Virus record (IMG/VR): IMGVR_UViG_3300020050_010385
Coordinates: 1-64,000 of that record
DNA from: a virus
Taxonomy: Duplodnaviria; Caudoviricetes
DNA length: 64,000 nt
Direction: 5' to 3' (one strand)
The notes under the pieces are model-generated. The model made no database searches. It had not been told where the DNA came from and saw only the letters and a list, made by a program, of their open reading frames with translations. A program made the translations under genes and the position numbers. How positions within the stretch are numbered: the first letter of the stretch is position 1; each line of letters starts with the position of its first letter. This document shows positions 16,381 through 63,753 of this stretch, in pieces.

Positions 16381-16632
16381 TTACCCGCGACTTTTTTTCT
16401 TAAGTATTGCTCTTTTAGCTGCATATTCCCGATCAGTTGACATTCCTTCAAGCCCAAAACGGAAAGCCACAACTTTATCATATATCGACTGCAACCACTG
16501 ATGCTGCGCGGGAGTAAGAGTTTTTTCTTTTGCCAGAATTCCTGCGCACTCCACAATAAACTGAAATTCTTTATGAGTAAAATCTGCTTTATGCCAATCC
16601 ATTAAGACAGTCATAAGGTCAACGGCTTTCAT
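16381..16632 (-). CDS. Hypothetical protein
   Basis: ORF coupled to deaminase stop; LTPAQ..WL..IY motif. Confidence 0.5.
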   Translation of the reverse strand: MKAVDLMTVLMDWHKADFTHKEFQFIVECAGILAKEKTLTPAQHQWLQSIYDKVVAFRFGLEGMSTDREYAAKRAILKKKSRG

Positions 16633-17066
16633 ACAGTTTCTCCCCAAAGAGTTACTGGAATTTCGGCATGCTGAAGTACATTCCATCCACCGTCAATATT
16701 TAATTCCTTAACCCTAACTTCTTTTACTCCGACGTTAATCAAAGCCCTGGCACAATCTACACACGGCGCATAGCTGCAATAAAGAATTGAGTCTCTAAGA
16801 GCAGTCCCGCGTTTAGCGGCCTGACAAATTGCATTAATCTCAGCATGTATATTTCTTGTGCAAGGAGAGCCACAAGTCCCTGGTTGATACCCCATAGAGC
16901 CGGTTTTAGCATCACAATGGTTAAATCCCCTTGGCGGAGCGTTATAACCAGTTGCCAGGATCTCGTAGTCGGTATTTACAAACACGGCCCCCACTTTCCG
17001 CTTGAAGCAATCCGACTTAGACTTTACAACGTCGGCTATAGCGCAGAGATATTCATGCTTTGTCAT
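16629..17066 (-). CDS. dCMP deaminase
   Basis: GYN, HAE.NA, PC..C. Confidence 0.9.
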   Translation of the reverse strand: MTKHEYLCAIADVVKSKSDCFKRKVGAVFVNTDYEILATGYNAPPRGFNHCDAKTGSMGYQPGTCGSPCTRNIHAEINAICQAAKRGTALRDSILYCSYAPCVDCARALINVGVKEVRVKELNIDGGWNVLQHAEIPVTLWGETV

Positions 17067-17246
17067 AAGGTTTTTCCTTAGGTTCTTTAAATATAAAATA
17101 TTTTTCCATTCCTTTTTCTATTACAATTTGCCCTTCCCATTGACATTGACCGGCTTTTGCAATTTCTTTACCTTCAATGCTTGTTACTGCTTCAGCACAT
17201 AGATTTCCGTTTATATCTCTTGAAACATTTTTAAGTTTTAACTTAA

Positions 17247-18047
17247 TCATGCCGCAGCCTCCAATCTATCATTTACTGGAAACTTAACCGTTTCATACCA
17301 GCCTGAACAAATCCCAACAAAAGTATCCGGTTTCTCCAGAATTTCCGCCACCGTCCATTCGTGGTCAAGATAATGTTGAAAATGCGGCACAATATTATCG
17401 ATCATTGTATTAGCAACCTGATAGCAATTCTCATAAATATGCGCATCCCCAATCATAATCCCTACACCGCCAAACTTAATACCCACCGAGTTAAATATAG
17501 CCTGGCCTAACAAATAGTAGGTCATCAAGTCATACGGAATTCCAATAATAACATCAGCCGACCGCTGATAAACTGAAATAAATCCTTTCCCTGCAACAAT
17601 ATAGAGGTTGAAGGCAAACGGGCACGGCACATTTTTATCAAACCCTTGACTCATTAACCCATCAGTCCCCGGATTCCATGAAATCACGAGGGCCTGGCGC
17701 GTGGACGGATCTTTTTTAAGAAGCCCAATAGCCTCCTCTATTTGATTTCTTCCAAACTCATGTACCCACCTATACCCATAAGCCGTGTTAATAAACCCAG
17801 GCCGATCCTCAAACTTCTGCCAGATTTTAGTATGCTTAGACAGCCACTCTGTACTTCTAGTCCCAGACAGCATCCAGGCCACTTCGGCCGCAGCAATCCG
17901 AGGCAGGATCTTTCTGGTAGAAAATAGCTGATTGGACTTCAACTCAACCGTTTGATTAAGAAGCCTTCGGGTTTTAAGCCCAGTTCTTTGATTGGGTTCT
18001 TCAATCCCATCTACTAACACTCGAAACACTAAGTCCATGTAATTCAT
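17247..18047 (-). CDS. Thymidylate synthase-family enzyme, Asp-type
   Basis: VPC, YQRSAD..IGIPYD, DAHIY. Confidence 0.85.
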   Translation of the reverse strand: MNYMDLVFRVLVDGIEEPNQRTGLKTRRLLNQTVELKSNQLFSTRKILPRIAAAEVAWMLSGTRSTEWLSKHTKIWQKFEDRPGFINTAYGYRWVHEFGRNQIEEAIGLLKKDPSTRQALVISWNPGTDGLMSQGFDKNVPCPFAFNLYIVAGKGFISVYQRSADVIIGIPYDLMTYYLLGQAIFNSVGIKFGGVGIMIGDAHIYENCYQVANTMIDNIVPHFQHYLDHEWTVAEILEKPDTFVGICSGWYETVKFPVNDRLEAAA

Positions 18048-18364
18048 GAAGCCTCCGTCATGTTGGTTCCTTCACCTATCATAACTGCATACAAAGCGCA
18101 GTAATTAGCCAAATCTTTAAGCCTTTCACGTATAGGCTCAGACTCCAGCTGTCCCTTTTTTGCATGGCTCATAATTGCATTCCAATGCTTATCCATGTAC
18201 ACTGTCAGCACTTGCTCAGGCTTAATGCCAAGCTTAGCTGCAGTTGCTTTTATTTCAGAAAACGGCACGCCTTCTGGATTATAATCCGCACCTTTTTTTT
18301 CTAGAATTGCAAGACATTCAATAAAAAAGTCTTTAAGACTATTATCTCTTTCTACCATACTCAT
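18044..18364 (-). CDS. Nucleotide-modification-associated (Nmad1/DUF1599-like) protein
   Basis: KG.DY...DK.....DLANY pattern next to TS. Confidence 0.65.
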   Translation of the reverse strand: MSMVERDNSLKDFFIECLAILEKKGADYNPEGVPFSEIKATAAKLGIKPEQVLTVYMDKHWNAIMSHAKKGQLESEPIRERLKDLANYCALYAVMIGEGTNMTEAS

Positions 18365-18502
18365 CTTGATTTCCCCCTTAGGCTTTGGTACGCATAGCTA
18401 AATACTCTGCGCATTTGTATTTTACTTAATCCATCTTCATATAACACTTGCATAAGCTTATCAGCAAGCACTTTCTTATACTGGCTAGACATGCGCTCGG
18501 CT

Positions 18503-18901
18503 TTAATAGCCGCTTTTTTGTCGTTCTTCATTAATCTCCCCTTTCCTGGAAAAGTACTGATATATGTTCTCAGGCGTCATACTTAACGCAATTGCCTTGC
18601 TCATAAGAAACTTGAGGTCATCAATAACTTCCATGCGCGCAGCTTCAAGGTCCAGCGGTTTGGTTGTTTTCTTCCAGTGTTTCCAATTAAGTTCCTCAAT
18701 CAATTCCGCATTCTCCATAATCGCGCATAAGCTTAACTCCTTAAGCCATCGATTTACTTCCGCAGGCGGCATGTTTGGCGTCAAGCCAAACTGCCTAGCA
18801 AACTTTAATTGATCCTCATACATTTGGCCTAACCTATCTTGCCCAATCACAGGGACCCAAGTCTTACCTTTAATCATTTTACTTTCTTGTCTTTCCATCA
18901 T
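18503..18901 (-). CDS. Dimeric dUTPase/dCTPase (all-alpha NTP-PPase)
   Basis: E..EL..E..WK.WK...E.ID...K...N..RQ..GY. Confidence 0.85.
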   Translation of the reverse strand: MMERQESKMIKGKTWVPVIGQDRLGQMYEDQLKFARQFGLTPNMPPAEVNRWLKELSLCAIMENAELIEELNWKHWKKTTKPLDLEAARMEVIDDLKFLMSKAIALSMTPENIYQYFSRKGEINEERQKSGY

Positions 18902-46541: not shown

Positions 46542-47798
46542 ATGAAAAAATTAATATTACTACTACTACTAATCTTTGGGTTCTGCAGTAACGCTTTTGC
46601 TACAAAATTCATGTACAATTTCGGGTCAAATACTAATAATTCAGCTGACGTATCCTACTGGTATATCGACGGTATCGGAACATCTTCGGCTTTCGAAGCC
46701 CAAAGATTTATGCCTGTAGCTTTACCTGTAAAACTTAGTAACCTATCGGTAGTAACAACAATTGCTCCCACAGCAGGACAGGGAGTTATTTATACAGTAT
46801 TCGTTAATGGTGTTGCAACAGCTTTAACGTGTACTATTCCTGATCTGCTTCTAGTATGTACTGATACTACGCATACCCTCTATCTGAATAAAAATGACAA
46901 TGTTTCTATCTACGTTACAAAATCAGGGACTCCAACCTATGGTCCATTTGTAGGATATGTACAGGCTGAAATTGAAAATAATAACTATGACTCATTGGTG
47001 GGAAGTGGTGCAAATAATACGTCAGTGAGTAATGCGGTAACTAATTACCTTGGGTTATTTACTGAGACCCCCTCAACAAGTGAAGCAGCCCACCAATTCG
47101 TCATTCCCTTAGATGGATATCTGTCTAAATTATACGTTCAGCTCTCAGGAATTCCTGGAGCAGGAAAAAGCTATACTATTACTGTCAGAAAAAATGGAGC
47201 CGATACTGCTTTAACTATCCCAGTTGCAGATAGTGCAACAACTAATGAAGATTTATTTAATAGAATAGCAGTATCTGCTGGTGATCTTATTGCGGTATCA
47301 GTGGTACCTTCAGGAACCCCCACAGCTAGAATTGTATCATTTTCTGCTGTCTATACTTCTTCAATCTCGGGGTATTTTATTAAAGGTATGAACACGGGTT
47401 CTACCTCACTCTCCCCATCTTCCACTTACTATACTGCCTTTGTAGGTACCATAGCCCCCACTACGTCAGGTCTAACGCAGAATGAACTTATCCCACCGAA
47501 TCTTTACTTAAAAAGAATGTACGCCTATTTAGCCACTGCTCCTGACACGGGAGTAGGGACTCAAAGTTACGCAATTACCCTCAGAGATTCAACAGCTTCC
47601 AGTAACACCACAGCAACGTGTACTATATCCGATATCGCTCAATCTTGTTTATTCAAATACCCAGTACCTTTACCTGCTACCGATATGCGAGCATCTTATA
47701 GTGCAGTTCCTTCTGGTACACCGGCAGCGTCAACCTTAACTGTAGGTGGAGCATTTACTCTAATCCCTCCTCAAGCATCTAATATTAAAGGTTACTAA
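46542..47798 (+). CDS. Signal-peptide protein with three internal beta-sandwich repeats
   Basis: MKKLILLLLLIFGFCSNAFA; repeated L..L.V....P..G....T...NG..TALT...SGTP. Confidence 0.7.
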   Translation: MKKLILLLLLIFGFCSNAFATKFMYNFGSNTNNSADVSYWYIDGIGTSSAFEAQRFMPVALPVKLSNLSVVTTIAPTAGQGVIYTVFVNGVATALTCTIPDLLLVCTDTTHTLYLNKNDNVSIYVTKSGTPTYGPFVGYVQAEIENNNYDSLVGSGANNTSVSNAVTNYLGLFTETPSTSEAAHQFVIPLDGYLSKLYVQLSGIPGAGKSYTITVRKNGADTALTIPVADSATTNEDLFNRIAVSAGDLIAVSVVPSGTPTARIVSFSAVYTSSISGYFIKGMNTGSTSLSPSSTYYTAFVGTIAPTTSGLTQNELIPPNLYLKRMYAYLATAPDTGVGTQSYAITLRDSTASSNTTATCTISDIAQSCLFKYPVPLPATDMRASYSAVPSGTPAASTLTVGGAFTLIPPQASNIKGY

Positions 47799-47972
47799 TA
47801 TGATAGAAAACGTAGTCTTGACTATTCCTCCAGAAAAATACAAGTTCATGGTAAAGACCCTAGAATCCTTCAAGTCAGGAATACGTTTATTAAACCTAAA
47901 TGCACTTTATAAACAAAGCCTAATAAAAGAACTCCACACCATAGAGAGCATCATTAAAACTAATAGGAGTCA

Positions 47973-48317
47973 GTGATGGAATTCACTCAAGAATTTAAAG
48001 ATGAAATGCTAAAGGAGATTAAAAATTTCAGAGTCCTACTCGTAGGTGACGGCACACTAGAAAATACTGGATTGATCGGTGTTGTAAAAGATCACGACAA
48101 TTACGTCCGTGACGGTAAGAAGTGGCGGTGGGCGATTATTGGATTGATCGGATCCTTTGCCACGTACGTTGTCGGAGGGTTCATACTATACGGCAAAATG
48201 GAAGAACGAATTGAGTGGCACGACAAATATATTAAATACTTTATTGACGAGAGAATGAATGCAAAAACACCAGTGCAACCCAATTACTATGACCCCCGAA
48301 CAACTAAAAAACATTAA
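47973..48317 (+). CDS. Single-TM protein (holin-like)
   Basis: L.G.G....GL; one TM helix. Confidence 0.5.
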   Translation: MMEFTQEFKDEMLKEIKNFRVLLVGDGTLENTGLIGVVKDHDNYVRDGKKWRWAIIGLIGSFATYVVGGFILYGKMEERIEWHDKYIKYFIDERMNAKTPVQPNYYDPRTTKKH

Positions 48318-54760: not shown

Positions 54761-55189
54761 TTAGTAATTACTTTTTTGTCTAAAAAGGTTAACCATAGAC
54801 TTTTTGAAATATAGGATATAAACTTGGGTAGAGGTAAGTCCTAACTCCAAAAATAGCTGGATCATAAAATGAAGAGCATCTGCTAGTTCTTCTAGGAAAT
54901 GGTCTTTATCCGTAGGTACATGAGTATTCTTCCAAGCTTTATTTCTTAAGCAATTACCAGCTTCATATAGCTCTTCAGTAATACGATATATGATAGCTCT
55001 TGCTCTTCTCTGCCCTTCAAAAGTATCAATATCTATGGGGAAACTAGGTAATGCTTCTCCATTTTTTATTTCAATTTCATAGTACTTCTTTTCAAGCTCT
55101 TCCTGTCTTTTAAAAATATCGGTGAGCATATCACCACTAGTTTGGAATTCCTTTTGAATATCTTCTTTAGTTATATTTTGAATATTCAT
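54761..55189 (-). CDS. Dimeric dUTPase/dCTPase
   Basis: EEL.EA...L.NK.WK, EELAD.LHF, K..VN.FRQ.S.Y. Confidence 0.85.
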   Translation of the reverse strand: MNIQNITKEDIQKEFQTSGDMLTDIFKRQEELEKKYYEIEIKNGEALPSFPIDIDTFEGQRRARAIIYRITEELYEAGNCLRNKAWKNTHVPTDKDHFLEELADALHFMIQLFLELGLTSTQVYILYFKKSMVNLFRQKSNY

Positions 55190-55375: not shown

Positions 55376-55720
55376 TCATTTTAAGCCTATTCTATAAGCA
55401 TGTTTAATATTCTCACTAGCTGTTACATATTCCAGATTACCCTTACAATTATTTAGCCTATCACCGTCCTTATGGTTTATTTGAAGTTTTCTAGGTTTTC
55501 TACCTATAAAAGCCCTTGCTACGATACTAGCAACTGAAATACTATTACCTAGTAAAGTAACATTTAAATATCTTCCCTTACCTCTCTTTTGTCCTTTTAA
55601 TATTCTTCCTGGCCAAGTACCACACATGGCTTTACCGTCTCTTCTTATTCTACCCAGTGAAGAAACTGAGTATAATTTTTTATAACCAATTACTGGTTTC
55701 CATACCTCAATCTTCGCCAT
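55376..55720 (-). CDS. NUMOD4-HNH homing endonuclease
   Basis: E.WKP..GY...Y.VS..GR; INHKDG...NN...NLEY.T..EN..H. Confidence 0.9.
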   Translation of the reverse strand: MAKIEVWKPVIGYKKLYSVSSLGRIRRDGKAMCGTWPGRILKGQKRGKGRYLNVTLLGNSISVASIVARAFIGRKPRKLQINHKDGDRLNNCKGNLEYVTASENIKHAYRIGLK

Positions 55721-56615
55721 CGTAATCAACCTCTGAAGTAGTTTCACCACCATCATTTTCCATGAACAACCGATGTTCTTTGGGTAAATCCATCCACTCA
55801 CCTCTCTTTGTACATCTATTCCAGTAGCCGCACATTTGGGGAGAGCAGAACATATTATTTTCTCTTTGTGGTAGGAATACTCCTCTTCTTACCTGAAGAA
55901 CTATTTTATAAACTAGATTAATAAACTGTCTAGTATCTTCTGGAGTAATGATCCTTAGCTCACTGCTTCTCATTTCAGGCTCAGCCTTCTTAATTAGAGT
56001 ATCAAGTACAAAGCCAGAAGGATTCTTATTAAACTTAGCTTGATACCCCAGCCAATAAGAAACTCCCTGAGTAGACTTTATAGCTTCTAACCAATTAGGG
56101 GCCCTACTCTTATTCTTTAAGTCCCTAATCATATGCCTAGTGGTAACCAAGTCAATAGTACCAGTAATACTAGCATTGACCTCTTTAAACTCTATGGCAA
56201 AGGGTTCTTCAACGTATAAGGGATCTACTCTCTTAGCTAGTTTCTCATAATAAACTGGTAATGCTTTCCTAATACCGTACTCCCTCATAGCCTCAGGCTT
56301 TTCATCCTGAGTAAACCTAGTTAAGACTGCTCTCTCTTTCCATGATTCATTGAAAACATCCTGAAGCACTGATAATTTAGCATCTCTACCTTTTCTTAAT
56401 TTGTACTTATTTTGATGCTCAGCTGACTTGTGCATTGAGGTACCGAAGGTAGCATAGCTACGAGGTGGTTCTATAATACCCTTGTGGTACCTAAATAAAG
56501 CCTGGGCAGAACATTTTAAGGCCATTTTAATATAGGAGGTTCTTAGAACAATGTGCTTATTAGGCGGTATCATCCAGCCCTCAGTATTATCTAATGCTTC
56601 AGGATGTTCTCTCAT
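55707..56615 (-). CDS. PD-(D/E)XK (Cas4/AddB-like) exonuclease
   Basis: C...GT..H, G.ID, DLK, C....C.Y...C. Confidence 0.8.
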   Translation of the reverse strand: MREHPEALDNTEGWMIPPNKHIVLRTSYIKMALKCSAQALFRYHKGIIEPPRSYATFGTSMHKSAEHQNKYKLRKGRDAKLSVLQDVFNESWKERAVLTRFTQDEKPEAMREYGIRKALPVYYEKLAKRVDPLYVEEPFAIEFKEVNASITGTIDLVTTRHMIRDLKNKSRAPNWLEAIKSTQGVSYWLGYQAKFNKNPSGFVLDTLIKKAEPEMRSSELRIITPEDTRQFINLVYKIVLQVRRGVFLPQRENNMFCSPQMCGYWNRCTKRGEWMDLPKEHRLFMENDGGETTSEVDYDGED

Positions 56616-56617
56616 GA

Positions 56618-57535
56618 TTATTTCCTTACTCTGTTGCGTGGTTTACGGGTACGAGCTGGTTCTTCTTCCTCTTCTTCAACTACCTTCTTCTTTTTAGTGA
56701 CCTTAGCTGGCTCTTCATCATCATCTTCAGAGTCATCATCTGAGTCATCTGAGTCATCTGAGTCATCGGAATCATCATCATCATCAGCTACTTTCTTTGA
56801 TTTACCTTTTGGTTCCTCATCTTGATCATCATCATCGTTATCAGAGTCATCATCGTCGTCATCACTGTCTTTGGATTTCTTGGCCTTAGTACTCTTTCCA
56901 AAGTTCTCAGCAATAACATCTTCTTGTTCATCTTCATCTAATTCCTCAGATACCTCATCTTCTAAATCAAACATCTTAGAAAGATCTGGTTCACCATCTG
57001 CATTTAAGGCAGGAGTAGATTTTGGTCTAACTCTTACTTCATATCGAGTATCAGTCATACCAGTTCCTTCACGATCGATAATTACGTCGAAGCCTTCTTC
57101 GAGGTCGGTAATATCACCAATGTCCTCATCATCCATAGCTCCAAGTAATACCTTTAAGGTCTTCTTACTAAATCCCCAAATGCAAATCATACCAGTTTTA
57201 CGATCAATGATATTAGCAAAGTACTTAGTCTTTGGTTCTAGTCTCTTAGCTAATTTTTCTCCTTCAGCCCCTTCTTGCTTTAACTTATTGATATACTGCA
57301 TGATAGGGGAATCATTACCAGTAAACTTAACTGAGATACCTCTACCATCTTTTTTAAGACCATAGTGAATACTTTCCTCATGATAAAAATTACCTGAATC
57401 ATTATTAGGAGGTAGGATTCTTACTCTATTAGGCCCAACTACGGGCTTAAAAAATTTACCACTTCCGATCTCAGCTAATTTTTGTTTAGCCTTATCCATG
57501 TTTGTTTTACCAATTTTACTTTTTTGCTTTACCAT
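56618..57535 (-). CDS. T4 gp32-like single-stranded DNA-binding protein
   Basis: G.N.VRILP, H, Y.ANI, D..D...G.D..I.R.G.G..T.Y; acidic tail. Confidence 0.75.
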   Translation of the reverse strand: MVKQKSKIGKTNMDKAKQKLAEIGSGKFFKPVVGPNRVRILPPNNDSGNFYHEESIHYGLKKDGRGISVKFTGNDSPIMQYINKLKQEGAEGEKLAKRLEPKTKYFANIIDRKTGMICIWGFSKKTLKVLLGAMDDEDIGDITDLEEGFDVIIDREGTGMTDTRYEVRVRPKSTPALNADGEPDLSKMFDLEDEVSEELDEDEQEDVIAENFGKSTKAKKSKDSDDDDDDSDNDDDDQDEEPKGKSKKVADDDDDSDDSDDSDDSDDDSEDDDEEPAKVTKKKKVVEEEEEEPARTRKPRNRVRK

Positions 57536-57743
57536 TTTTTTCTCCTTTACTTTTGTTTGCTTTGATTTCTTCTGGGGTAGCTTTACCGATGATCCTAAAA
57601 ATAACATCCCCATTTTCCTTTGACTTACCACGAATAGCCTTCATATTATTTTTCATGATAATAGTTTCACAATCTACCATCTCTACTTTCTTACCCAGCC
57701 GTACTGAATAACCATAGACTTTTTCACTCTTATCTTTTTTCAC
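57516..57743 (-). CDS. DUF5679-like small basic protein lacking Cys
   Basis: Y.V...K.EM.......KN...A..G......G...FRI.G. Confidence 0.55.
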   Translation of the reverse strand: MKKDKSEKVYGYSVRLGKKVEMVDCETIIMKNNMKAIRGKSKENGDVIFRIIGKATPEEIKANKSKGEKNGKAKK

Positions 57744-59554
57744 AGACTAACCTCCTTAAGGTCACTCCAACGTTCTCCAATTTTAATGTCCATTTTCATT
57801 GGTACTCTTAATTCTATAGGTGGATTCTCGGCTATGGATTTTAGCATCTTACCTATCTTTAAAGCATCCTCTTTCTTACAGTCTATGATTACTGAGTCGT
57901 GTACATTACATACCACCTTTCCGTTTAGTTTTAGTTTCTTAAGAGCATAATGTGCTCTAGTCCCTACCCACTTAGTTAAGTCTCCTGCTCCACCTTGTAT
58001 GGGTGAATTAACTCCTTGTCTAAGCTTTCCTCTACCTGGTCCAGTATTATAGTTAGCTCCTGGTAGTCTTCTCTTCCTTCCAAAAAGATTAGTTACAAAG
58101 CCATTCTCTATAGTATTTTCTTTCTGGTCATCAATATATCTCTTAACTCTTTTAAATTCTCTGAACCAATCATTAATCAATTCCCTAGCTCTTTCCTCAC
58201 TACAGTCTAATTTATCCGATAATCCCAGTGGTCCAATCATATAAACTATACCGAAGTTTACCTGCTTAGCAAATTTCCTCTGCTCTTCAGTTACCTTTTC
58301 ATAAGCAATATTAAATACCTTAGCAGCAACCTCTTGATGAATGTCTCTCCCTGACTTAAAGGCTCCTATTAAAGATTTATCACCGCTATGATGGGCTAAT
58401 AGCCTAAGCTCAGCCTGAGAATAATCTCCTTGTACTAATACACCATTGGTATATGAAGAAATAAATAATCTTTTAATATCTCCATTCCTTGGAATATTCT
58501 GTAGGTTTGGTCCTTCACATGACATCCGCCCGGTTACTGTAAACATCTTATAGTTGCAATGTACTTTACCATCAGACTTCATAATATAGTTATCTGTTAA
58601 TCCAGCAACATAGGTAGAGTACATCTTAGCAGTATAGCGATACTTTAGCAGATCTAATAGTGGTTGCTTATGTACTTTATTTAATTTCATCCTACCCAAT
58701 TTTAAAAGAGTATCTTCATCACAAGAAGGTGCTCCTGGTTTATCTGGATTCTTCTTAGTGGGTGGATTCCTTTTAATAATGGGAAACTTATATTCTCCAT
58801 ATAACTTTTCACTTAGCTGCTTTGAAGAATTAAAATTCATATCACCGAAGTGGTGCAGTAGTGTCTTTTCACTTTCCTTTAATTCCTTTTCGTACTTAGT
58901 TCTTAGTTCACGTCTTACTCCATCATCTATCTTAAACCCATTCATTTCCATATAACACAGAACCTTTAGATTTTTCATCTCAAAATCCATGAGGTCAGAT
59001 AGCTCTTCTTTCTCTAGTAGCCTTTTTTGAGCTGAGAATACTTGAAAGGCTGCATCAACATCTCCCCCATTATAATCAGTCCATTGTTTTAAATTCCAGC
59101 CTTCTCCGTATTTACTCTTCTTAAATAAATCCTTTTGCTTAGTAAGGTATTTCCCAAGCTCTGGGTTATACTTTCTTGTTAAAGCATCTAAGGTATTCTG
59201 CCATTGGTTTTCATCTAATAAATGCTCAGCAACATGGGTGCAGAATATTTTAGACTTAATTGATTTAATTAGCTCATGTCTTAATAGCCACTTTAAATCA
59301 AATTTAATATCCTGGTTGATTAACATTTCACATGAATTTAAAATCTCTGAGATATTCTTAAAGTATCTTTCATGATATGGAAATACATAGCCTAAATCTG
59401 GCTTATTAGTAAAACCTACAAATTTAATAGTTTTAGAATTATCAAAGCAATCTAGTCCTTCAGTTTCAAGGTCACAAACTAAATTCTCAGATCCCTGCAG
59501 TAACTCGGTAATTCTTTTTAAATTTGTTTTATCTACCAATTTATAGTGGGCCAT
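57740..59554 (-). CDS. DNA polymerase family A
   Basis: DLETEG, KFD, TGRMS..PNLQNIPR, DYSQAELR, R..AK..NFG, VHDS. Confidence 0.95.
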   Translation of the reverse strand: MAHYKLVDKTNLKRITELLQGSENLVCDLETEGLDCFDNSKTIKFVGFTNKPDLGYVFPYHERYFKNISEILNSCEMLINQDIKFDLKWLLRHELIKSIKSKIFCTHVAEHLLDENQWQNTLDALTRKYNPELGKYLTKQKDLFKKSKYGEGWNLKQWTDYNGGDVDAAFQVFSAQKRLLEKEELSDLMDFEMKNLKVLCYMEMNGFKIDDGVRRELRTKYEKELKESEKTLLHHFGDMNFNSSKQLSEKLYGEYKFPIIKRNPPTKKNPDKPGAPSCDEDTLLKLGRMKLNKVHKQPLLDLLKYRYTAKMYSTYVAGLTDNYIMKSDGKVHCNYKMFTVTGRMSCEGPNLQNIPRNGDIKRLFISSYTNGVLVQGDYSQAELRLLAHHSGDKSLIGAFKSGRDIHQEVAAKVFNIAYEKVTEEQRKFAKQVNFGIVYMIGPLGLSDKLDCSEERARELINDWFREFKRVKRYIDDQKENTIENGFVTNLFGRKRRLPGANYNTGPGRGKLRQGVNSPIQGGAGDLTKWVGTRAHYALKKLKLNGKVVCNVHDSVIIDCKKEDALKIGKMLKSIAENPPIELRVPMKMDIKIGERWSDLKEVSL

Positions 59555-59555
59555 T

Positions 59556-59987
59556 TTAATCTACCTGCTCATATATTAGTTCTGATTCACCGCCAAGTAG
59601 GTTAAGAATAAACCGGTCTCTGGCTAGATCCTTGTATAAATTAATAAAATAGAACTCTCTTACTCCTACTGAGTATAGATGCTTAAAGCAATCTTTGCAA
59701 GGTTCGTGAGTACAAAACATAATAAGTCTTGAGTAATTATGTTCCAAGTGTAGAAGGGCATTCATCTCAGCATGAATAGTTCTAATGCAATGACCTTCGT
59801 GTATAAGACAACCAATATCTATACAATGGGCTTCTCCAGGAGGAGAGCCGTTATAGCCTGTTGCTACTATCCTATTGTTATAGACTAATACTGCTCCTAC
59901 TTGAGCCCGGGAACAGGTAGATCTCAAGGCTACTAACTTAGCTATCTTTGTGTAATACTTTATTCGATCTATTCTTTTGAAGGTCAT
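59556..59987 (-). CDS. dCMP deaminase
   Basis: RSTC.RAQVGA, GYNG, HAE.NA, PC..C. Confidence 0.9.
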   Translation of the reverse strand: MTFKRIDRIKYYTKIAKLVALRSTCSRAQVGAVLVYNNRIVATGYNGSPPGEAHCIDIGCLIHEGHCIRTIHAEMNALLHLEHNYSRLIMFCTHEPCKDCFKHLYSVGVREFYFINLYKDLARDRFILNLLGGESELIYEQVD

Positions 59988-60717
59988 TCCATTCTCCAGT
60001 CTTATAGTTAAGTAAAGGTAGCATACCATTCTTTACCTGTTTTTCTCCATAGATACCCATTAAGTAGTTTCTATAGTTTGTTAATCTTCTTATAGTAGGT
60101 AACTGATATCCACCAAAGTCTTTTTCTAAGTCTAAGCTGGTCCCTACATTTTCACCAAAGATTGTTTTGTAGCTTCTCATAGTTACCATAGAGAAAAATA
60201 TTACAGTACAATTAAAGACTACCTTTACCTTCTCTAGCTTCAATTGATTTAACATGTAAGAGATTAATCTTAGGTCAGCTAAGAATTTCTTGGGTACTTC
60301 AGCTATCTTACTGGTTACTACTACGGTTATTTGTTTATTAGCTTTAAAAATATGGAAAGAAGATAAGCACCCTCCCTTACCACTGGGCTTCATTTTAAAG
60401 TTCATACCAATAGCGAAATACCTAGTATTTTTAATCTCCTCAAACTTTTCCCTTAATTCTCTCCACTGTTCTTGGTCAATATAAGTATTAACTAACCTAG
60501 TCATTTTATTACTTACTGTCCTCTCATAGCCCACAGTATGAAATAGTGCCATACCAGTCCATGATTTTTCCCAGCTCTTTATGACCATACGATTATTTAA
60601 AGAGATAATTCTTGTTCCCAGATCACAATCTATAATCCCACTTTGGTCATTATTTAAAGCCATATCACCTAATTTTATCCATAAATGAGTTGGATTCTCT
60701 ACAGTAATATCGATCAT
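59938..60717 (-). CDS. Divergent thymidylate-synthase-fold paralog
   Basis: GGCLSSFH...VTSKIAE....FLAD lines up with TS PC..Q...RS.D....PxN/D. Confidence 0.5.
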   Translation of the reverse strand: MIDITVENPTHLWIKLGDMALNNDQSGIIDCDLGTRIISLNNRMVIKSWEKSWTGMALFHTVGYERTVSNKMTRLVNTYIDQEQWRELREKFEEIKNTRYFAIGMNFKMKPSGKGGCLSSFHIFKANKQITVVVTSKIAEVPKKFLADLRLISYMLNQLKLEKVKVVFNCTVIFFSMVTMRSYKTIFGENVGTSLDLEKDFGGYQLPTIRRLTNYRNYLMGIYGEKQVKNGMLPLLNYKTGEWNDLQKNRSNKVLHKDS

Positions 60718-61424
60718 TAAAACACCTTTTTCTTGTTCCAGTCTTTACGATAAGCATGTAAAGATCCAATAAATTGTGTAAATCTACCAGGCTCAATATC
60801 TAAATAATCTGCTAGTGCTCTTTGGAAACCCATTGTTAGGGCTATATCATAGGGGAAATGAGTATAGAAATCACATGAGCGCATGGTATAAATACAATCT
60901 AGGTACTCTACATTATCACGAACTCTTCTTAAAAATTGGTAGTACATACTGCACGGTATTCTAGCTTTACCACCAATATTAGCTAAGTCTTTGTCCTTGT
61001 CATATAAAGTAATAATAGCCTGTCTAGTATTAGGATTTTTAATTAAGTTTTCAAGGATAGGAGTAAGTTGTTCACGAATTCTTTCATTGTAGGTATAAGA
61101 AAACTTACCGTCATGTAGGAATTGTTGCCATACCTCTAATCTATTTAGATAAGCCTCTCCTGGATTAAGGTAGGTACTTGAAATACGGGCATCTACTTCT
61201 TCATCGATATAGGCTCTATTTAACCCTAGCTCTTTAATATCTTGCCAGATAAATTTTTGGCTAGTAATCATAAAAGAATAACCCTGAATTTCTTTAGTAA
61301 TGAAGTCATCATTATCTTTTACATTTTTATCCTGCATAGTTTCTGGGTGTACTAAAGTTCCCATTTCATTTAGATCTCTTTCCACTTCATTTACTGCTTG
61401 TGCTAATCCTTCATAGATACGCAT
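60717..61424 (-). CDS. Thymidylate synthase-family enzyme, Asp-type (dCMP methyl/hydroxymethylase-like)
   Basis: YTY..R, TRQA, IPCS..YQF, MRSCD...FPYD, SLHAY. Confidence 0.85.
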   Translation of the reverse strand: MRIYEGLAQAVNEVERDLNEMGTLVHPETMQDKNVKDNDDFITKEIQGYSFMITSQKFIWQDIKELGLNRAYIDEEVDARISSTYLNPGEAYLNRLEVWQQFLHDGKFSYTYNERIREQLTPILENLIKNPNTRQAIITLYDKDKDLANIGGKARIPCSMYYQFLRRVRDNVEYLDCIYTMRSCDFYTHFPYDIALTMGFQRALADYLDIEPGRFTQFIGSLHAYRKDWNKKKVF

Positions 61425-62248
61425 TTTTTATTTCCTCCTATTATTTTACGAAGTTCACGAGCTGGAATATCATCTGGATCTTTATAATTATCTAAGAAGA
61501 TATACTTAGTAGGTATATGAAAACTTAGTTGCTTAATTAATTCCCATTGCTCCTTAACAGCATCTCGATCGAGCATAATGGTGGCACTATTAGCTACTTT
61601 AGCTATCTCCTGGAGTTGAGCAGCATCTGCTCTCTTCCCTAGTAATGAAATAGCTGGCTTTACTCGACCAATTTTTATTGCATCGAATACTCCCTCTACT
61701 ACAATAGCATGGTCTACTCTTCCAGCAAAAGTAGTGAATAATACTCCTTTCTTTGAGAAACTAATTGAATTAAAGTATCTGGGTTCCTTATTAGTAAATG
61801 ATCTACCAACAAAATAAATTAATTTACTCAATCGATAAATTGGCAAAATTATTCTTTCTGAGTAGTCTCCATCACTGCAATACCCCATATTGTACTGAGC
61901 AACCTCATCTGGATTAATTCCTCTATTAATGAGGTAGTTATAGGGAAGGCCACTATTAGAATTAAGCTTGTTAAAATGTTCTGGTAATTTCATTATCTTT
62001 CTTTCTTTAATTTCCCTTGATTCTTTTGTTAAAAACTTATTAGCTCTATCTTGAAAGTTGTCTAGGGTAGGGCCTAAGTCTTCTACCTTTCCCTTAAAGG
62101 CACATTTTTGACAATAGAATAGTTTTTTACCGAGGTGGACATATAAGTGATATTTCTGGTCATCGCAATTAGTACAGCAGAATCTTACCTGCCTGGGATT
62201 ATTAGTTCTTTTAGATTCTCCTAATGATAGAAGATTAATTCTTACCAC
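61403..62248 (-). CDS. DNA primase (Zn finger + TOPRIM)
   Basis: C..C...H...C.KC, YL..RG, VEG.FD, LD.DA, KDP. Confidence 0.9.
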   Translation of the reverse strand: MVRINLLSLGESKRTNNPRQVRFCCTNCDDQKYHLYVHLGKKLFYCQKCAFKGKVEDLGPTLDNFQDRANKFLTKESREIKERKIMKLPEHFNKLNSNSGLPYNYLINRGINPDEVAQYNMGYCSDGDYSERIILPIYRLSKLIYFVGRSFTNKEPRYFNSISFSKKGVLFTTFAGRVDHAIVVEGVFDAIKIGRVKPAISLLGKRADAAQLQEIAKVANSATIMLDRDAVKEQWELIKQLSFHIPTKYIFLDNYKDPDDIPARELRKIIGGNKKCVSMKD

Positions 62249-63506
62249 TTTTATATTCTCCCATAAACATAGTCTCTGGCTCTAATGCTAAACGTATTGT
62301 TGGATGCCCAGACTTCTTTCTAGACTTAGCAATAAATAGTCTTACTAACTTTTCTTCTTCCTCTTCTGGTGTTTGACAAATACCAATAACTACATCAGCT
62401 ACCTTTACTTTACCAAAAGACTCAGCTACGTCCCTGAGGCCAACCAGGTTCCTATTTAAGCTTTCTCTATTACTTTGACTTGCCGTATAAATTGGTACTT
62501 GTAGCTTTACAGCTAATCTCCTTAGGTCAGTATATACTTCTTCTAAGCTATGGCGGGTATCTTTGTGCTTTTGCCCAGGAGCTAATAAATCACCATAGTC
62601 AACCACTATAATATCAAACTGCTCATTATTCCGACTTTGATAATTAAGGACCATTGAGTAAATATCTTGTACTCTAGGTGATTCCATTGAGTAGTCTTTA
62701 ATAACTAGGTTGCATCCTTTAGCCTTTAGTCTACTAAGTGGGTTCTTAATGGCTCCGGGATTATCTCTGAGACTCTGGAAAGTATTTTTAGTTATCCTCA
62801 TATCATATCTACGAGCTATTTTCCGATCGGATATTTCTAGAGTTAAGTGTAGTACCTTTAGTCCCTGCATTAAAGCTCCCATACCCATATTGATTAAAGC
62901 GGTAGTCTTACCTCTACCAGGAGGGCCTAGAAATACCAGTAATTCTCCTGGACTCATTCCTCCATCTAGTTCAAGATCTAGCCTTTTAATTCCAGTGGAA
63001 ATCTTCTTTTCTTTTACCTCATCTATCATCCTTTGTCCTGGATCTTCAAAATATGAATAAGTATCAGAGGCTACTCCTACGTCTAAGTTCATGGCCTTAT
63101 CAATATATTCTTTTACCGTTAGGAAATCAGGATTGCTGTGGTCCAATAAAGCTAAGGCCTCTGTTATAGCTAATTTAACTAATTGAATCTTAGCAAAATG
63201 ACTAATAGTTTCTTGAATGATTTTATTATCTGTACTATTTTGCCTTCTAATTAAACTAACTATCGATAGGCAACTTTCTCTTAAGTCTTCATCCTTAATA
63301 TTCTTATTAATTAGAAGCCTCATATTTCCTGTGCTTAGCTTATATGAATCATACTTTTGAAAGAAGCCTTCAATAATCTGGAATAATTGCTTTGTCTCTT
63401 CACTAGCAAAGAAGGCTGGCTGTAGGATAGACTTATACTTGAACCAATTTTCTTTTACTCTTATGGTACTTAGAATGCGGATTTCAGTTTGCTTGGTTGC
63501 TTCCAT
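62235..63506 (-). CDS. DnaB/gp41-like replicative helicase
   Basis: GPPGRGKT, LEI, VDY.D, TASQ.NR. Confidence 0.9.
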   Translation of the reverse strand: MEATKQTEIRILSTIRVKENWFKYKSILQPAFFASEETKQLFQIIEGFFQKYDSYKLSTGNMRLLINKNIKDEDLRESCLSIVSLIRRQNSTDNKIIQETISHFAKIQLVKLAITEALALLDHSNPDFLTVKEYIDKAMNLDVGVASDTYSYFEDPGQRMIDEVKEKKISTGIKRLDLELDGGMSPGELLVFLGPPGRGKTTALINMGMGALMQGLKVLHLTLEISDRKIARRYDMRITKNTFQSLRDNPGAIKNPLSRLKAKGCNLVIKDYSMESPRVQDIYSMVLNYQSRNNEQFDIIVVDYGDLLAPGQKHKDTRHSLEEVYTDLRRLAVKLQVPIYTASQSNRESLNRNLVGLRDVAESFGKVKVADVVIGICQTPEEEEEKLVRLFIAKSRKKSGHPTIRLALEPETMFMGEYKSGKN

Positions 63507-63753
63507 AACTAAAATGCTCCTTTTCTGCATGAATCAAATACTTTATCAGGCACCGTAACTCTTTTTGATTAAAGCTCAGCCCATTGCTGGTAAACATAAA
63601 ACCTTTTGAATTATGAGTACATTCTCTTAAGTCTAAAACTAGATTGTAGTTTCTAATTAGCACTCTAATCCTATATTTGATTATCTTCTCAGAATCATTC
63701 CTTTTTATGATTGAAGGATATTCAGTAATTTTCTCTTCTTGGAATTTGCCCAT
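63484..63753 (-). CDS. PC4-like ssDNA-binding protein
   Basis: LDLR........T..G.S pattern. Confidence 0.5.
   Translation of the reverse strand: MGKFQEEKITEYPSIIKRNDSEKIIKYRIRVLIRNYNLVLDLRECTHNSKGFMFTSNGLSFNQKELRCLIKYLIHAEKEHFSYGSNQAN

What the first reader, a model, noticed from the sequence alone, without database searches (positions are those of the whole stretch)
59556..61424. Tandem TS paralogs (one Asp-type, one degenerate) plus deaminase wired between primase and polymerase
Seen: 60717-61424 has PC, RSCD, FPYD and H.Y. The coupled 59938-60717 keeps a Cys and the Asp (FLAD) but has lost RS.D and H.Y. Known: TS active sites are built across a dimer. Inference: a heterodimeric cytosine-modifying enzyme or a two-step base modification.
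Basis: partly seen in the sequence, partly recalled or inferred. Interest (0 to 1): 0.7.

Follow-up and report, generated by a model that had tools for sequence, protein, structure and literature searches.

The report
Paired thymidylate-synthase-like enzymes in phage
A phage replication module carries a cytosine-directed thymidylate-synthase relative, then an unannotated second protein of the same fold that keeps the catalytic cysteine; this pair recurs in many phages, including Mycobacterium phage Muddy, and points to undescribed cytosine chemistry.

Summary
ORF1 (60717-61424) is a short thymidylate synthase (TS) homologue with Cys, RSCD and H.Y, and Asp where TS has uracil-reading Asn177. 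ORF2 (59938-60717) has no Pfam or PDB sequence match, but its AlphaFold model (pLDDT 91) is a TS fold (Z 14.9 to phage HY126 dCMP hydroxylase AfhB). Cys117, Lys137, Glu140 and Asp148 have the spacing of TS Cys146, Arg166, Asp169 and Asn177. A dCMP deaminase follows, between primase and PolA.

New here: ORF2 belongs to an unannotated family. Its Cys, Asp, one Tyr and an Arg/Lys stay nearly invariant at 13-20% identity. All 8 contexts retrieved from ORF2 relatives had a short TS gene within 2 kb. About 70% of ORF1-type loci carry an ORF2-like gene, including Muddy gp46/gp47 and Clostridium perfringens, Gordonia and Streptomyces phages. Three complete genomes have ORF1-like alone, so an obligate heterodimer is unlikely.

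Best reading: a pre-replicative cytosine-modification kit in which ORF2 is a second active enzyme, probably working on ORF1's product. The final base is unknown.

The 95-kb record looks like two related phages joined; the finding lies in the second.

The parts
60717..61424 (-). ORF1, 235 aa. A short Asp-type thymidylate-synthase homologue, probably a dCMP C5-modifying enzyme. Key residues: R134-Q135 (TS R126-R127), R155 (L143), C158 (C146), S159 (H147), R182-S183-C184-D185 (R166-D169), D193 (N177), H223/Y225 (H207/Y209). It ends 10 aa after H.Y and lacks roughly the last 45 residues of TS.
   Evidence: PF00303 at 60.5 bits. phrog_160 'thymidylate synthase' at 2.9e-27. Alignments to solved TS chains. 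Model pLDDT 92.3. Z 20-22 to AfhB, MilA and TS, covering E. coli TS residues 1-219 only. Signature uniform over about 85 relatives.
59938..60717 (-). ORF2, 259 aa. A divergent TS-fold paralogue from an unannotated family. It keeps C117 (C146), K137 (R166; Arg in most relatives) and D148 (N177 position), plus invariant Y79 and basic K71. E140 sits at the D169 position. It lacks H207/Y209 equivalents and has extra C-terminal helices.
   Evidence: No Pfam match; weak phrog_34294 'unknown function'. No PDB sequence match even with a family profile. AF2 pLDDT 91. Foldseek and VIA give a TS fold. hhalign register. Family conservation.
59556..59987 (-). dCMP deaminase, 143 aa from the ATG at 59987 (the longest ORF reaches 60029). 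Zinc motifs HAE and PCxxC are present. It is translationally coupled to ORF2 by a 50-nt overlap.
   Evidence: PF00383 at 74.2 bits. phrog_174 'dCMP deaminase' at 3e-39. The gene call of 143 aa in the 99%-identical contig L005. Start context.
54761..55189 (-). dUTPase_2/MazG-like nucleotide pyrophosphohydrolase, 142 aa. By inference it is the module's dNTP-to-dNMP step (dCTPase/dUTPase-like).
   Evidence: PF08761 at 38.1 bits. phrog_12184 'nucleotide pyrophosphohydrolase' at 3.8e-26. Its family accompanies ORF1-type genes in 61 loci.
57740..59554 (-). Family A DNA polymerase with 3'-5' exonuclease, 604 aa, immediately downstream of the deaminase.
   Evidence: PF00476 at 322.6 bits and PF01612 at 45.8 bits. 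PolA accompanies ORF1-type genes in 68 loci.
61403..62248 (-). DnaG-type primase, 281 aa, immediately upstream of ORF1 with a 22-nt overlap.
   Evidence: PF08275 at 32 bits. phrog_47 'DNA primase' at 6.1e-45.

Best explanation
This is the nucleotide-modification core of a phage replication module. It most likely replaces or decorates cytosine before replication, on the T4 pattern.

Shown:
- ORF1 is a complete, strongly conserved, short TS homologue. It has the catalytic Cys, the Arg-Ser-x-Asp phosphate/folate motif and His/Tyr, with Asp at the base-reading Asn177 position. That points to dCMP rather than dUMP as substrate.
- ORF2 is a second TS-fold protein from a distinct, unannotated family. 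The family keeps the covalent-catalysis core (Cys nucleophile, Arg/Lys at R166, Asp at N177, an invariant Tyr, two further conserved basic residues). It has lost the deoxyribose-binding His/Tyr and the usual Asp169.
- ORF2-like genes were seen only beside short ORF1-type genes, while ORF1-type genes also occur alone.

Inferred:
- ORF1 uses methylene-tetrahydrofolate to put a one-carbon group on C5 of dCMP. Asp169, Trp80 and Tyr94 equivalents are kept. Hydroxymethyl is more likely than methyl, because the closing C-terminal segment of TS is absent and no DHFR is present.
- ORF2 is an active enzyme that attacks C6 of a cytosine nucleotide with Cys117 and works downstream of ORF1. It probably acts on ORF1's product with a co-substrate other than folate.
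- The MazG-like hydrolase supplies dNMP, and the deaminase shifts the pool toward dUMP or deaminates the modified dCMP.

The final base is not known.
For: - Fold and residues of ORF1.
- Fold and residues of ORF2.
- ORF2-like family conservation at 13-20% identity: Y79 98%, C117 98%, D148 100%, basic at 137 98%, basic at 71 95%, basic at 214 84%.
- Asymmetric dependence: 8 of 8 ORF2-derived contexts have a short PF00303 gene within 2 kb. 41 of 58 well-flanked ORF1-type loci have ORF2-like. Three complete genomes have ORF1-type only, with control 4/4.
- ORF1's signature does not depend on the partner.
- Multiple ORF2-like copies occur in some loci.
- Module partners across loci: dUTPase_2/MazG-like 61, dCMP deaminase 45, thymidylate-kinase-like 32, PolA 68.
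- Published residue rules: N177D means dCMP, L143D/E means hydroxymethyl, D169N means 5-hydroxy-dCMP synthase (PMC13326640).
- TS homologue, pyrophosphohydrolase and dCMP deaminase co-occur on cytosine-modified metagenomic contigs (PMC8670742).
- The long Asp-type TS of Xanthomonas phage MET13-T1 sits next to a DHFR gene, and none is seen here.
Against: - No chemistry was measured, so ORF1's product and ORF2's substrate are both inferred.
- ORF1 has Arg at the L143 position, which fits neither the published methyl (hydrophobic) nor the hydroxymethyl (Asp/Glu) signature.
- This record has no dNMP kinase. A host kinase would have to accept the modified dNMP.
- Tight translational coupling here (TAATG) is equally what a heteromeric enzyme would show.
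- Co-occurrence counts come from metagenomic loci that are not phylogenetically independent.
Confidence: 0.45

Rival explanations
1. ORF1 and ORF2 form a heterodimer on the TS dimer pattern, with two unlike active sites. ORF2 acts as a structural or regulatory half, or its Cys117 site is completed by ORF1's Arg134 across the interface.
For: TS active sites use Arg126'/Arg127' from the partner subunit (established knowledge). ORF1 keeps Arg134 but has Gln at the second Arg. ORF2 has no conserved basic residue in that loop. The genes overlap by one base here, and by 1 or 4 bases in several relatives in either order. ORF2-like was never seen without an ORF1-type gene.
Against: ORF1-type genes occur without ORF2-like in three complete genomes, with an identical active-site signature. 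Only 7 of 41 pairs are overlapping or within 5 nt, and other genes often lie between them. Some loci have two ORF2-like copies. No fusion was found, which is weak evidence. The ORF2-like family has three conserved basic positions of its own that could bind a phosphate in cis.
Confidence: 0.22
2. ORF2 is an independent enzyme acting on unmodified dCMP (or dCTP/CMP) with a non-folate cofactor, such as a flavin-dependent C5 hydroxylase like AfhB. It would give a second modification in parallel with ORF1's.
For: The closest solved structures to the ORF2 model are the flavin-dependent dCMP hydroxylase AfhB entries 9iqu and 9iqc (Z 14.9 and 14.4), against Z 13.4 or less for MilA and about 11-12 for TS. 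The Cys/Arg/Asp core is kept while folate-associated Asp169 is not.
Against: The published diagnostic for 5-hydroxy-dCMP synthases is Asn at the D169 position. ORF2 has Glu there, and relatives have Glu, Tyr or Phe. The Z advantage of AfhB over MilA is only about 1.5 and may just reflect both being short forms. Strict dependence on an ORF1-type neighbour is not explained.
Confidence: 0.13
3. ORF2 is a non-catalytic nucleotide-binding protein: a pseudoenzyme, an allosteric regulator, or a scaffold linking ORF1 and the deaminase in a dNTP-synthesis complex.
For: It has lost Ser167, Asp169, His207 and Tyr209 equivalents and matches no TS profile. It is coupled on both sides, to ORF1 and to the deaminase.
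Against: Near-invariance of the nucleophile Cys, the base-reading Asp, a Tyr and the Arg/Lys across a family at 13-20% identity is what purifying selection on catalysis looks like.
Confidence: 0.12
4. This is ordinary thymidylate supply: the deaminase makes dUMP and ORF1 is a normal dUMP-methylating TS. ORF2 is an unrelated hypothetical protein.
For: Database annotations of relatives read 'thymidylate synthase'. The phage half is AT-rich (GC 0.34-0.38), so dTTP demand is high.
Against: Asp replaces Asn177 in ORF1 and in all roughly 85 relatives. ORF1 lacks the TS C-terminal segment. ORF2 is a TS fold and is not unrelated.
Confidence: 0.05

Closest known systems
T4 gp42 dCMP hydroxymethylase (PDB 1B5D/6A9A) and the T4 dCTPase / dCMP deaminase / dNMP kinase kit
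   Same: ORF1 is a short TS homologue with Cys, RSxD and HxY, and Asp at the Asn177 position. It sits in a module with a dNTP pyrophosphohydrolase, a dCMP deaminase and the phage's own polymerase.
   Different: ORF1 has Arg where T4 gp42 has Asp (L143 position) and Arg-Gln where gp42 has Arg-Arg. Identity is low: gp42 is not among the 60 best PDB sequence matches. T4 has no second TS-fold partner. This record has no dNMP kinase and no glucosyltransferase.
Phage HY126 AfhB / RB69 gp48 flavin-dependent 5-hydroxy-dCMP synthases (PDB 9IQU, 9IQC; PMC13326640)
   Same: They are the best structural neighbours of both models: ORF2 Z 14.9, ORF1 Z 21-22. They share the short architecture of about 235 aa and the dCMP substrate.
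   Different: The diagnostic D169N change is absent. ORF1 keeps Asp185 and ORF2 has Glu140. Sequence identity of ORF2 to AfhB is about 10%.
Canonical thymidylate synthase ThyA (PF00303)
   Same: Same fold and same covalent-catalysis residues in ORF1. The ORF2 model superposes at Z 11-12 over about 180 residues.
   Different: Asn177 is Asp in both proteins. ORF1 lacks TS residues from about 220 to the end. ORF2 fails the Pfam profile and lacks His207/Tyr209, Ser167 and Asp169.
Long Asp-type TS homologue of Xanthomonas phage MET13-T1 (Bosavirus); from memory, not checked here, this phage group is close to XP12, the 5-methylcytosine phage
   Same: Asp at the Asn177 position, with an adjacent dCMP deaminase.
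   Different: That type is long (313 aa, with a C-terminal segment), has Asn at the L143 position and sits next to a DHFR gene. The other TS gene of this record (17247-18047) resembles it; ORF1 does not. No ORF2-like gene accompanies that other TS gene in this record; the MET13-T1 locus itself was not scanned with the ORF2-like profile.
MilA CMP hydroxymethylase (PDB 5JNH/5B6D)
   Same: A TS-fold enzyme acting on a cytosine nucleotide. Z 21-22 to the ORF1 model and 12-13 to the ORF2 model.
   Different: It is a bacterial antibiotic-pathway enzyme of about 320 aa with a C-terminal extension, acting on a ribonucleotide. Identity to ORF2 is 4-7%.

Membership tests
TS / dCMP hydroxymethylase superfamily (PF00303), ORF1 | Profile match above the curated cut-off | tested here: met
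   60.5 bits against a 24.3 cut-off, covering residues 89-230.
TS / dCMP hydroxymethylase superfamily (PF00303), ORF1 | TS fold | tested here: met
   Model pLDDT 92.3. Z 20-22, rmsd 2.0-2.5 A over 205-216 residues to AfhB, MilA and E. coli TS.
TS / dCMP hydroxymethylase superfamily (PF00303), ORF1 | Catalytic Cys146, Arg166-Ser167, Asp169, His207/Tyr209 | tested here: met
   C158, R182-S183, D185 and H223/Y225 are aligned to solved TS chains and are invariant or nearly so in relatives.
Canonical ThyA (dUMP to dTMP), ORF1 | Asn177 reading uracil, and a C-terminal segment that closes over folate | tested here: not met
   Asp193 sits at that position. The protein ends 10 aa after H.Y, and the model covers only E. 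coli TS residues 1-219.
T4-type dCMP hydroxymethylase, ORF1 | N177D together with an acidic residue at the L143 position (PMC13326640) | tested here: not met
   N177D is met. The L143 position is Arg155 in ORF1 and all relatives, while T4 gp42 has Asp. This lowers membership; a hydroxymethyl product is still possible.
5-hydroxy-dCMP synthase (AfhB / RB69 gp48 type), ORF1 and ORF2 | Asn at the Asp169 position (PMC13326640) | tested here: not met
   ORF1 has Asp185. ORF2 has Glu140, and relatives have Glu, Tyr or Phe.
5-hydroxy-dCMP synthase (AfhB / RB69 gp48 type), ORF2 | Bound flavin cofactor | not testable with these tools
   This needs purified protein, or a ligand-aware model.
TS / dCMP hydroxymethylase superfamily, ORF2 | Profile match to PF00303 | tested here: not met
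   No Pfam family at E up to 0.1. A profile of 24 relatives finds no PDB chain at E up to 10. The ORF2-like profile does touch Muddy gp46 TS at 4.3e-5 over the Cys-to-Asp stretch.
TS / dCMP hydroxymethylase superfamily, ORF2 | TS fold | tested here: met
   Model pLDDT 91.0. Foldseek probability 1.00, E 3e-6 to 1e-3, to AfhB, T4 dCH, MilA and TS. Z 14.9 (180 aa, 3.0 A) and 11-13. BFVD hits to TS/dCH.
TS / dCMP hydroxymethylase superfamily, ORF2 | Catalytic Cys146 and Arg166 in register | tested here: met
   C117 and K137 are 20 residues apart, as are C146 and R166, and hhalign aligns them to ORF1 C158 and R182. Across 61 relatives Cys is 98% and the 137 position is Arg 84% / Lys 15%.
TS / dCMP hydroxymethylase superfamily, ORF2 | Ser167, Asp169, His207/Tyr209 | tested here: not met
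   The sequence is K137-I-A-E140, and there is no H.Y after the last core strand. Positions 138 and 139 each carry Ser/Thr in 44-62% of relatives.
dCMP deaminase (PF00383), 59556-59987 | Profile match and HAE / PCxxC zinc motifs | tested here: met
   74.2 bits against a 25 cut-off. HAEMNAL and PCKDC are visible in the translation.

The most novel reading that the evidence does not exclude
The ORF2-like proteins are a new catalytic branch of the thymidylate-synthase superfamily. They would use the Cys-at-C6 mechanism without folate to convert the ORF1 product (for example 5-hydroxymethyl-dCMP, via the exocyclic methylene intermediate) into a new C5-substituted cytosine nucleotide. Phages carrying the pair, including Mycobacterium phage Muddy and Clostridium perfringens, Gordonia and Streptomyces phages, would then hold a cytosine modification that has not been described.
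Probability: 0.3. Interest if true: 0.85.

Novelty: new variant of a known kind. Interest (0 to 1): 0.66.

Why it matters
Phage DNA base modifications decide whether restriction, CRISPR and other nucleases can cut the phage. They also supply enzymes for epigenetic sequencing tools. All TS-family enzymes characterised so far in this role act singly: T4 gp42, dUMP hydroxymethylases, dCMP methylase and the flavin-dependent 5-hydroxy-dCMP synthases.

This work shows a recurrent two-gene arrangement. A distinct short Asp-type TS clade (Arg at L143, Gln at R127) is joined in about 70% of loci by a second TS-fold protein that no profile library recognises, yet which keeps the nucleophile, the base-reading Asp and a Tyr.

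The pair is present but annotated 'hypothetical' in cultured phages that are easy to test.

If the pair makes a modified cytosine, that bears on host range and defence evasion of those phages, and on how their DNA behaves in sequencing and cloning. If ORF2 has its own chemistry, it extends what the TS fold is known to do.

Tried and rejected
- Sequence annotation of ORF2. Pfam gave nothing and PHROGs gave only a weak 'unknown function' family. A PDB search with a 24-sequence profile gave nothing at E up to 10. tblastn of ORF2 against 50,697 phage records gave nothing. More distant family members did find cultured phages.
- hhalign of the ORF2 family against the ORF1 family gave a correct-looking register but only 7% probability. 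I use it only together with the fold result.
- The search for related loci with the ORF2 alignment failed for lack of a conserved 7-10 column stretch. I retrieved loci through ORF1 and scanned them with my own HMMs.
- Fusion search. There was no ORF1/ORF2, ORF2/deaminase, ORF2/kinase or ORF2/dUTPase fusion among the loci or among longer ORF1 homologues; the long forms are intein insertions. A 408-aa 'deaminase domain' protein in BFVD with a TS-like fold (rank 8) could not be fetched and remains a lead.
- Correlations. The ORF1 signature, deaminase, kinase and dUTPase do not track presence of ORF2-like.
- Literature. I found no paper describing a second TS-fold paralogue, or DNA modification in Muddy or the C. 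perfringens phages, in the held library. This is not an exhaustive search.
- Earlier findings of this scan returned nothing. The protein atlas gave only 'hypothetical protein' clusters.
- Rejected: that the 17-kb TS gene and ORF1 are two paralogues of one genome working together. The record appears to hold two phages.
Full report
WHAT IS THERE. The window is the first 64 kb of a 95,131-bp IMG/VR virus record. Between 54.7 and 63.5 kb, all on the minus strand, lies a replication module:
- DnaB-like helicase, 62235-63530
- DnaG-type primase, 61403-62248
- ORF1, 60717-61424
- ORF2, 59938-60717
- dCMP deaminase, 59556-60029 (probable start 59987)
- family A DNA polymerase, 57740-59554
- an SSB-like protein, a PD-(D/E)XK nuclease and an HNH endonuclease
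- a dUTPase_2/MazG-like pyrophosphohydrolase, 54761-55189

ORF1's stop and ORF2's start share TAATG. The deaminase ATG at 59987 has GGAG 8 nt upstream and lies 50 nt inside ORF2. A 99%-identical contig has the same gene calls.

ORF1. It matches PF00303 at 60.5 bits over residues 89-230. Alignments to solved TS chains place C158 on Cys146, R182-S183-C184-D185 on Arg166-Asp169, H223/Y225 on His207/Tyr209, and Asp193 (FPYD) on Asn177 (PFNI). Its AlphaFold model (pLDDT 92.3) superposes on AfhB, MilA and TS at Z 20-22. It covers only residues 1-219 of E. coli TS, because the protein ends 10 residues after H.Y.

The family is large: 916 proteins at E up to 1e-10. Across about 85 loci the signature is almost uniform: R134-Q135 (TS R126-R127), R155 (L143), C158, S/T159 (H147), R182, S183, D185, D193, H223, Y/F225.

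Published rules read N177D as dCMP specificity, L143D/E as hydroxymethyl product, and D169N as flavin-dependent 5-hydroxy-dCMP synthase (PMC13326640). ORF1 meets the first rule only. T4 gp42 has Asp and Arg-Arg where ORF1 has Arg155 and Arg-Gln. ORF1 is therefore a distinct clade of cytosine-directed TS homologues. I infer folate use from the retained Asp169, Trp80 and Tyr94 equivalents. I lean to a hydroxymethyl product because the closing C-terminal segment is missing and no DHFR is present. In Xanthomonas phage MET13-T1, by contrast, a long Asp-type TS sits next to a DHFR gene. This product call is inference.

ORF2. Sequence methods fail. Pfam gives nothing and PHROGs gives only a weak family of unknown function. 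There is no PDB match even with a family profile, and no tblastn hit in phage records. An exhaustive HMMER scan of 1.84 billion representatives found only 32 clusters.

Their alignment gave a confident model (pLDDT 91.0, pTM 0.89) that is a TS fold:
- Foldseek probability 1.00 to AfhB (E 3e-6), T4 dCMP hydroxymethylase, MilA and many TS entries.
- VIA Z 14.9 over 180 residues at 3.0 A to 9iqu, and Z 11-13 to MilA and TS.
- BFVD hits to uncharacterised viral proteins, then TS/dCH.

hhalign against the ORF1 family is weak (E 0.005), but it aligns C117, K137, E140 and D148 with ORF1's C158, R182, D185 and D193. The spacings 20, 3 and 8 are those of TS C146-R166-D169-N177. The ORF2-like profile also touches Muddy's TS gp46 at 4.3e-5 over this stretch.

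A WIDER FAMILY, AND ITS CONSERVATION. I scanned 79 viral loci retrieved through ORF1 with an iterated ORF2 profile. This found 68 ORF2-like ORFs, 61 of them distinct. At 13-20% identity to ORF2 the family keeps:
- Y79 (98%), C117 (98%) and D148 (100%)
- a basic residue at 137 (Arg 84%, Lys 15%), at 71 (95%) and at 214 (84%)
- structural L75, F107, G115 and L118

The loop that in TS donates Arg126'/127' to the partner subunit is not conserved. This pattern argues for a working active site on a cytosine nucleotide. It argues against a decayed copy.

CO-OCCURRENCE. Of 58 loci with at least 3 kb on both sides of the ORF1-type gene, 41 have an ORF2-like gene on the same strand. The order goes either way. 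Seven pairs overlap or lie within 5 nt, 15 more lie within 300 nt, and most of the rest within 2 kb. Some loci hold two copies (L002, L018, L024).

Starting instead from ORF2 relatives, all 8 contexts have a short PF00303 gene (233-257 aa) within 2 kb.

Three complete genomes with terminal repeats have the ORF1-type gene and no ORF2-like gene. The same search recovered 4 of 4 known positives. ORF1's signature does not differ between the two groups.

Dependence therefore runs one way: ORF2-like needs ORF1-type, and the reverse does not hold. I take this as the main argument for a downstream or accessory enzyme rather than an obligate heterodimer. No fusion of the two was found.

Other module members across the loci are PolA (68 loci), dUTPase_2/MazG-like (61), dCMP deaminase (45) and thymidylate-kinase-like (32). 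This toolkit has been linked to cytosine-modified contigs in metagenomes (PMC8670742) and resembles the T4 scheme. This particular record has no such kinase.

CULTURED CARRIERS. The pair is present and unannotated in:
- Clostridium perfringens phages P21, CPD4, CPAS-15, Clo-PEP-1 and relatives
- Mycobacterium phage Muddy, where the order is thymidylate kinase gp49, dUTPase gp48, ORF2-like gp47, 'thymidylate synthase' gp46, deaminase-domain gp45 and Pol I gp44
- Streptomyces phage KimJongPhill gp77/78
- 58 Gordonia phage records

Muddy gp46 and KimJongPhill gp78 carry the ORF1 signature. Muddy gp47 and KimJongPhill gp77 carry Y79, C117, R137 and D148. I found no paper on DNA modification in these phages in the held library.

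HOW IT MOST LIKELY WORKS. The fold, residues, coupling and co-occurrence above are shown. The following steps are inferred.
- The MazG-like enzyme turns dCTP/dUTP into monophosphates.
- ORF1 adds a one-carbon unit at C5 of dCMP.
- ORF2 uses Cys117 at C6, Asp148 on N3/N4 and Tyr79 as acid/base to act on a cytosine nucleotide, most simply ORF1's product, with a co-substrate other than folate.
- The deaminase feeds dUMP to host TS for an AT-rich genome (GC about 0.34), or deaminates the modified dCMP.
- The phage polymerase incorporates the result.

Rivals are a heterodimer with asymmetric sites, an independent AfhB-like hydroxylase, and a non-catalytic partner. Each is scored in the Rival explanations section.

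CONTEXT CAVEAT. The record looks like two related phages of about 47 kb each, joined end to end.
- Structural modules at 22.7-44.5 kb and 69.3-91.2 kb are collinear and 73-83% identical.
- The record's last 284 bases match 47709-47992 at 89%.
- Each half has its own polymerase, dUTPase_2-like gene, Asp-type TS and deaminase.
- A separate 43-kb contig carries the second half's module.

The TS gene in the first half (17247-18047, PF00303 137 bits) is a long, MET13-like Asp-type with no ORF2-like neighbour. It should not be read as a third paralogue of the same genome.

VERDICT. The thing is a new variant within the TS superfamily: a recurrent, unannotated ORF1/ORF2 pair whose chemistry is unknown and which can be tested directly in cultured phages.

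Noticed in passing
window 1-48000 versus record 48000-95131 (structural modules 22719-44502 and 69255-91194): The 95-kb record holds two collinear sets of structural genes at 73-83% DNA identity and two unrelated replication modules. Its last 284 bases match 47709-47992 at 89%. It looks like two related phages of about 47 kb joined in assembly, with swapped replication and nucleotide-modification modules.
   Followed up: partly
window 16629-18901 (-): The first half has its own kit: a dUTPase_2-like gene (18503-18901), a long Asp-type TS homologue (17247-18047, IPYD, Asn at the L143 position, full C-terminal segment) resembling the TS of Xanthomonas phage MET13-T1, and a dCMP deaminase (16629-17066). 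It has no ORF2-like gene. It may be a dCMP methylase type.
   Followed up: partly
loci L017, L033, L037, L045, L051, L071 (slot next to the ORF1-type gene): Where ORF2-like is missing, the gene next to the ORF1-type gene is often a C5 cytosine DNA methylase (PF00145). Six of the 8 loci with such a gene lack ORF2-like (Fisher p 0.0065; the loci are not independent). This could be an alternative Cys-at-C6 enzyme in the same slot, or just common cargo.
   Followed up: partly
L078 6001-7947; proteins P0153 and P0155: Some ORF1-type genes carry an insertion of 390 aa or more at the catalytic-Cys region, with intein-splicing (both proteins) and LAGLIDADG (P0153) domains.
   Followed up: partly
window 55376-55801 (-): An HNH endonuclease gene overlaps the end of the PD-(D/E)XK nuclease gene. 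It is absent from the otherwise 99%-similar 43-kb contig (L005), so it looks like a recent homing-endonuclease insertion.
   Followed up: partly
BFVD entry A0A8S5MQL3 (rank 8): A 408-aa viral protein named 'CMP/dCMP-type deaminase domain-containing protein' matches the ORF2 model over 291 columns. It may be a natural TS-fold/deaminase fusion. The sequence could not be fetched.
   Followed up: no
L009, L090, L093 (polymerase genes): In several relatives the family A polymerase next to the deaminase has an N-terminal uracil-DNA-glycosylase-like domain (PF03167). The window's polymerase lacks it.
   Followed up: no
MN417334.1 Clostridium phage CPAS-15, 13253-13999: The ORF2-like gene is annotated 'colanic acid biosynthesis glycosyltransferase' in this record and 'hypothetical protein' in nine near-identical phages. 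The former is probably a mis-annotation.
   Followed up: no
window 56618-57631 (-) and 56604-57365 (+): The SSB-like protein has a long Asp/Glu/Ser-rich acidic tail. The Ser-rich ORFs on the opposite strand are mirror artefacts of that tail.
   Followed up: no
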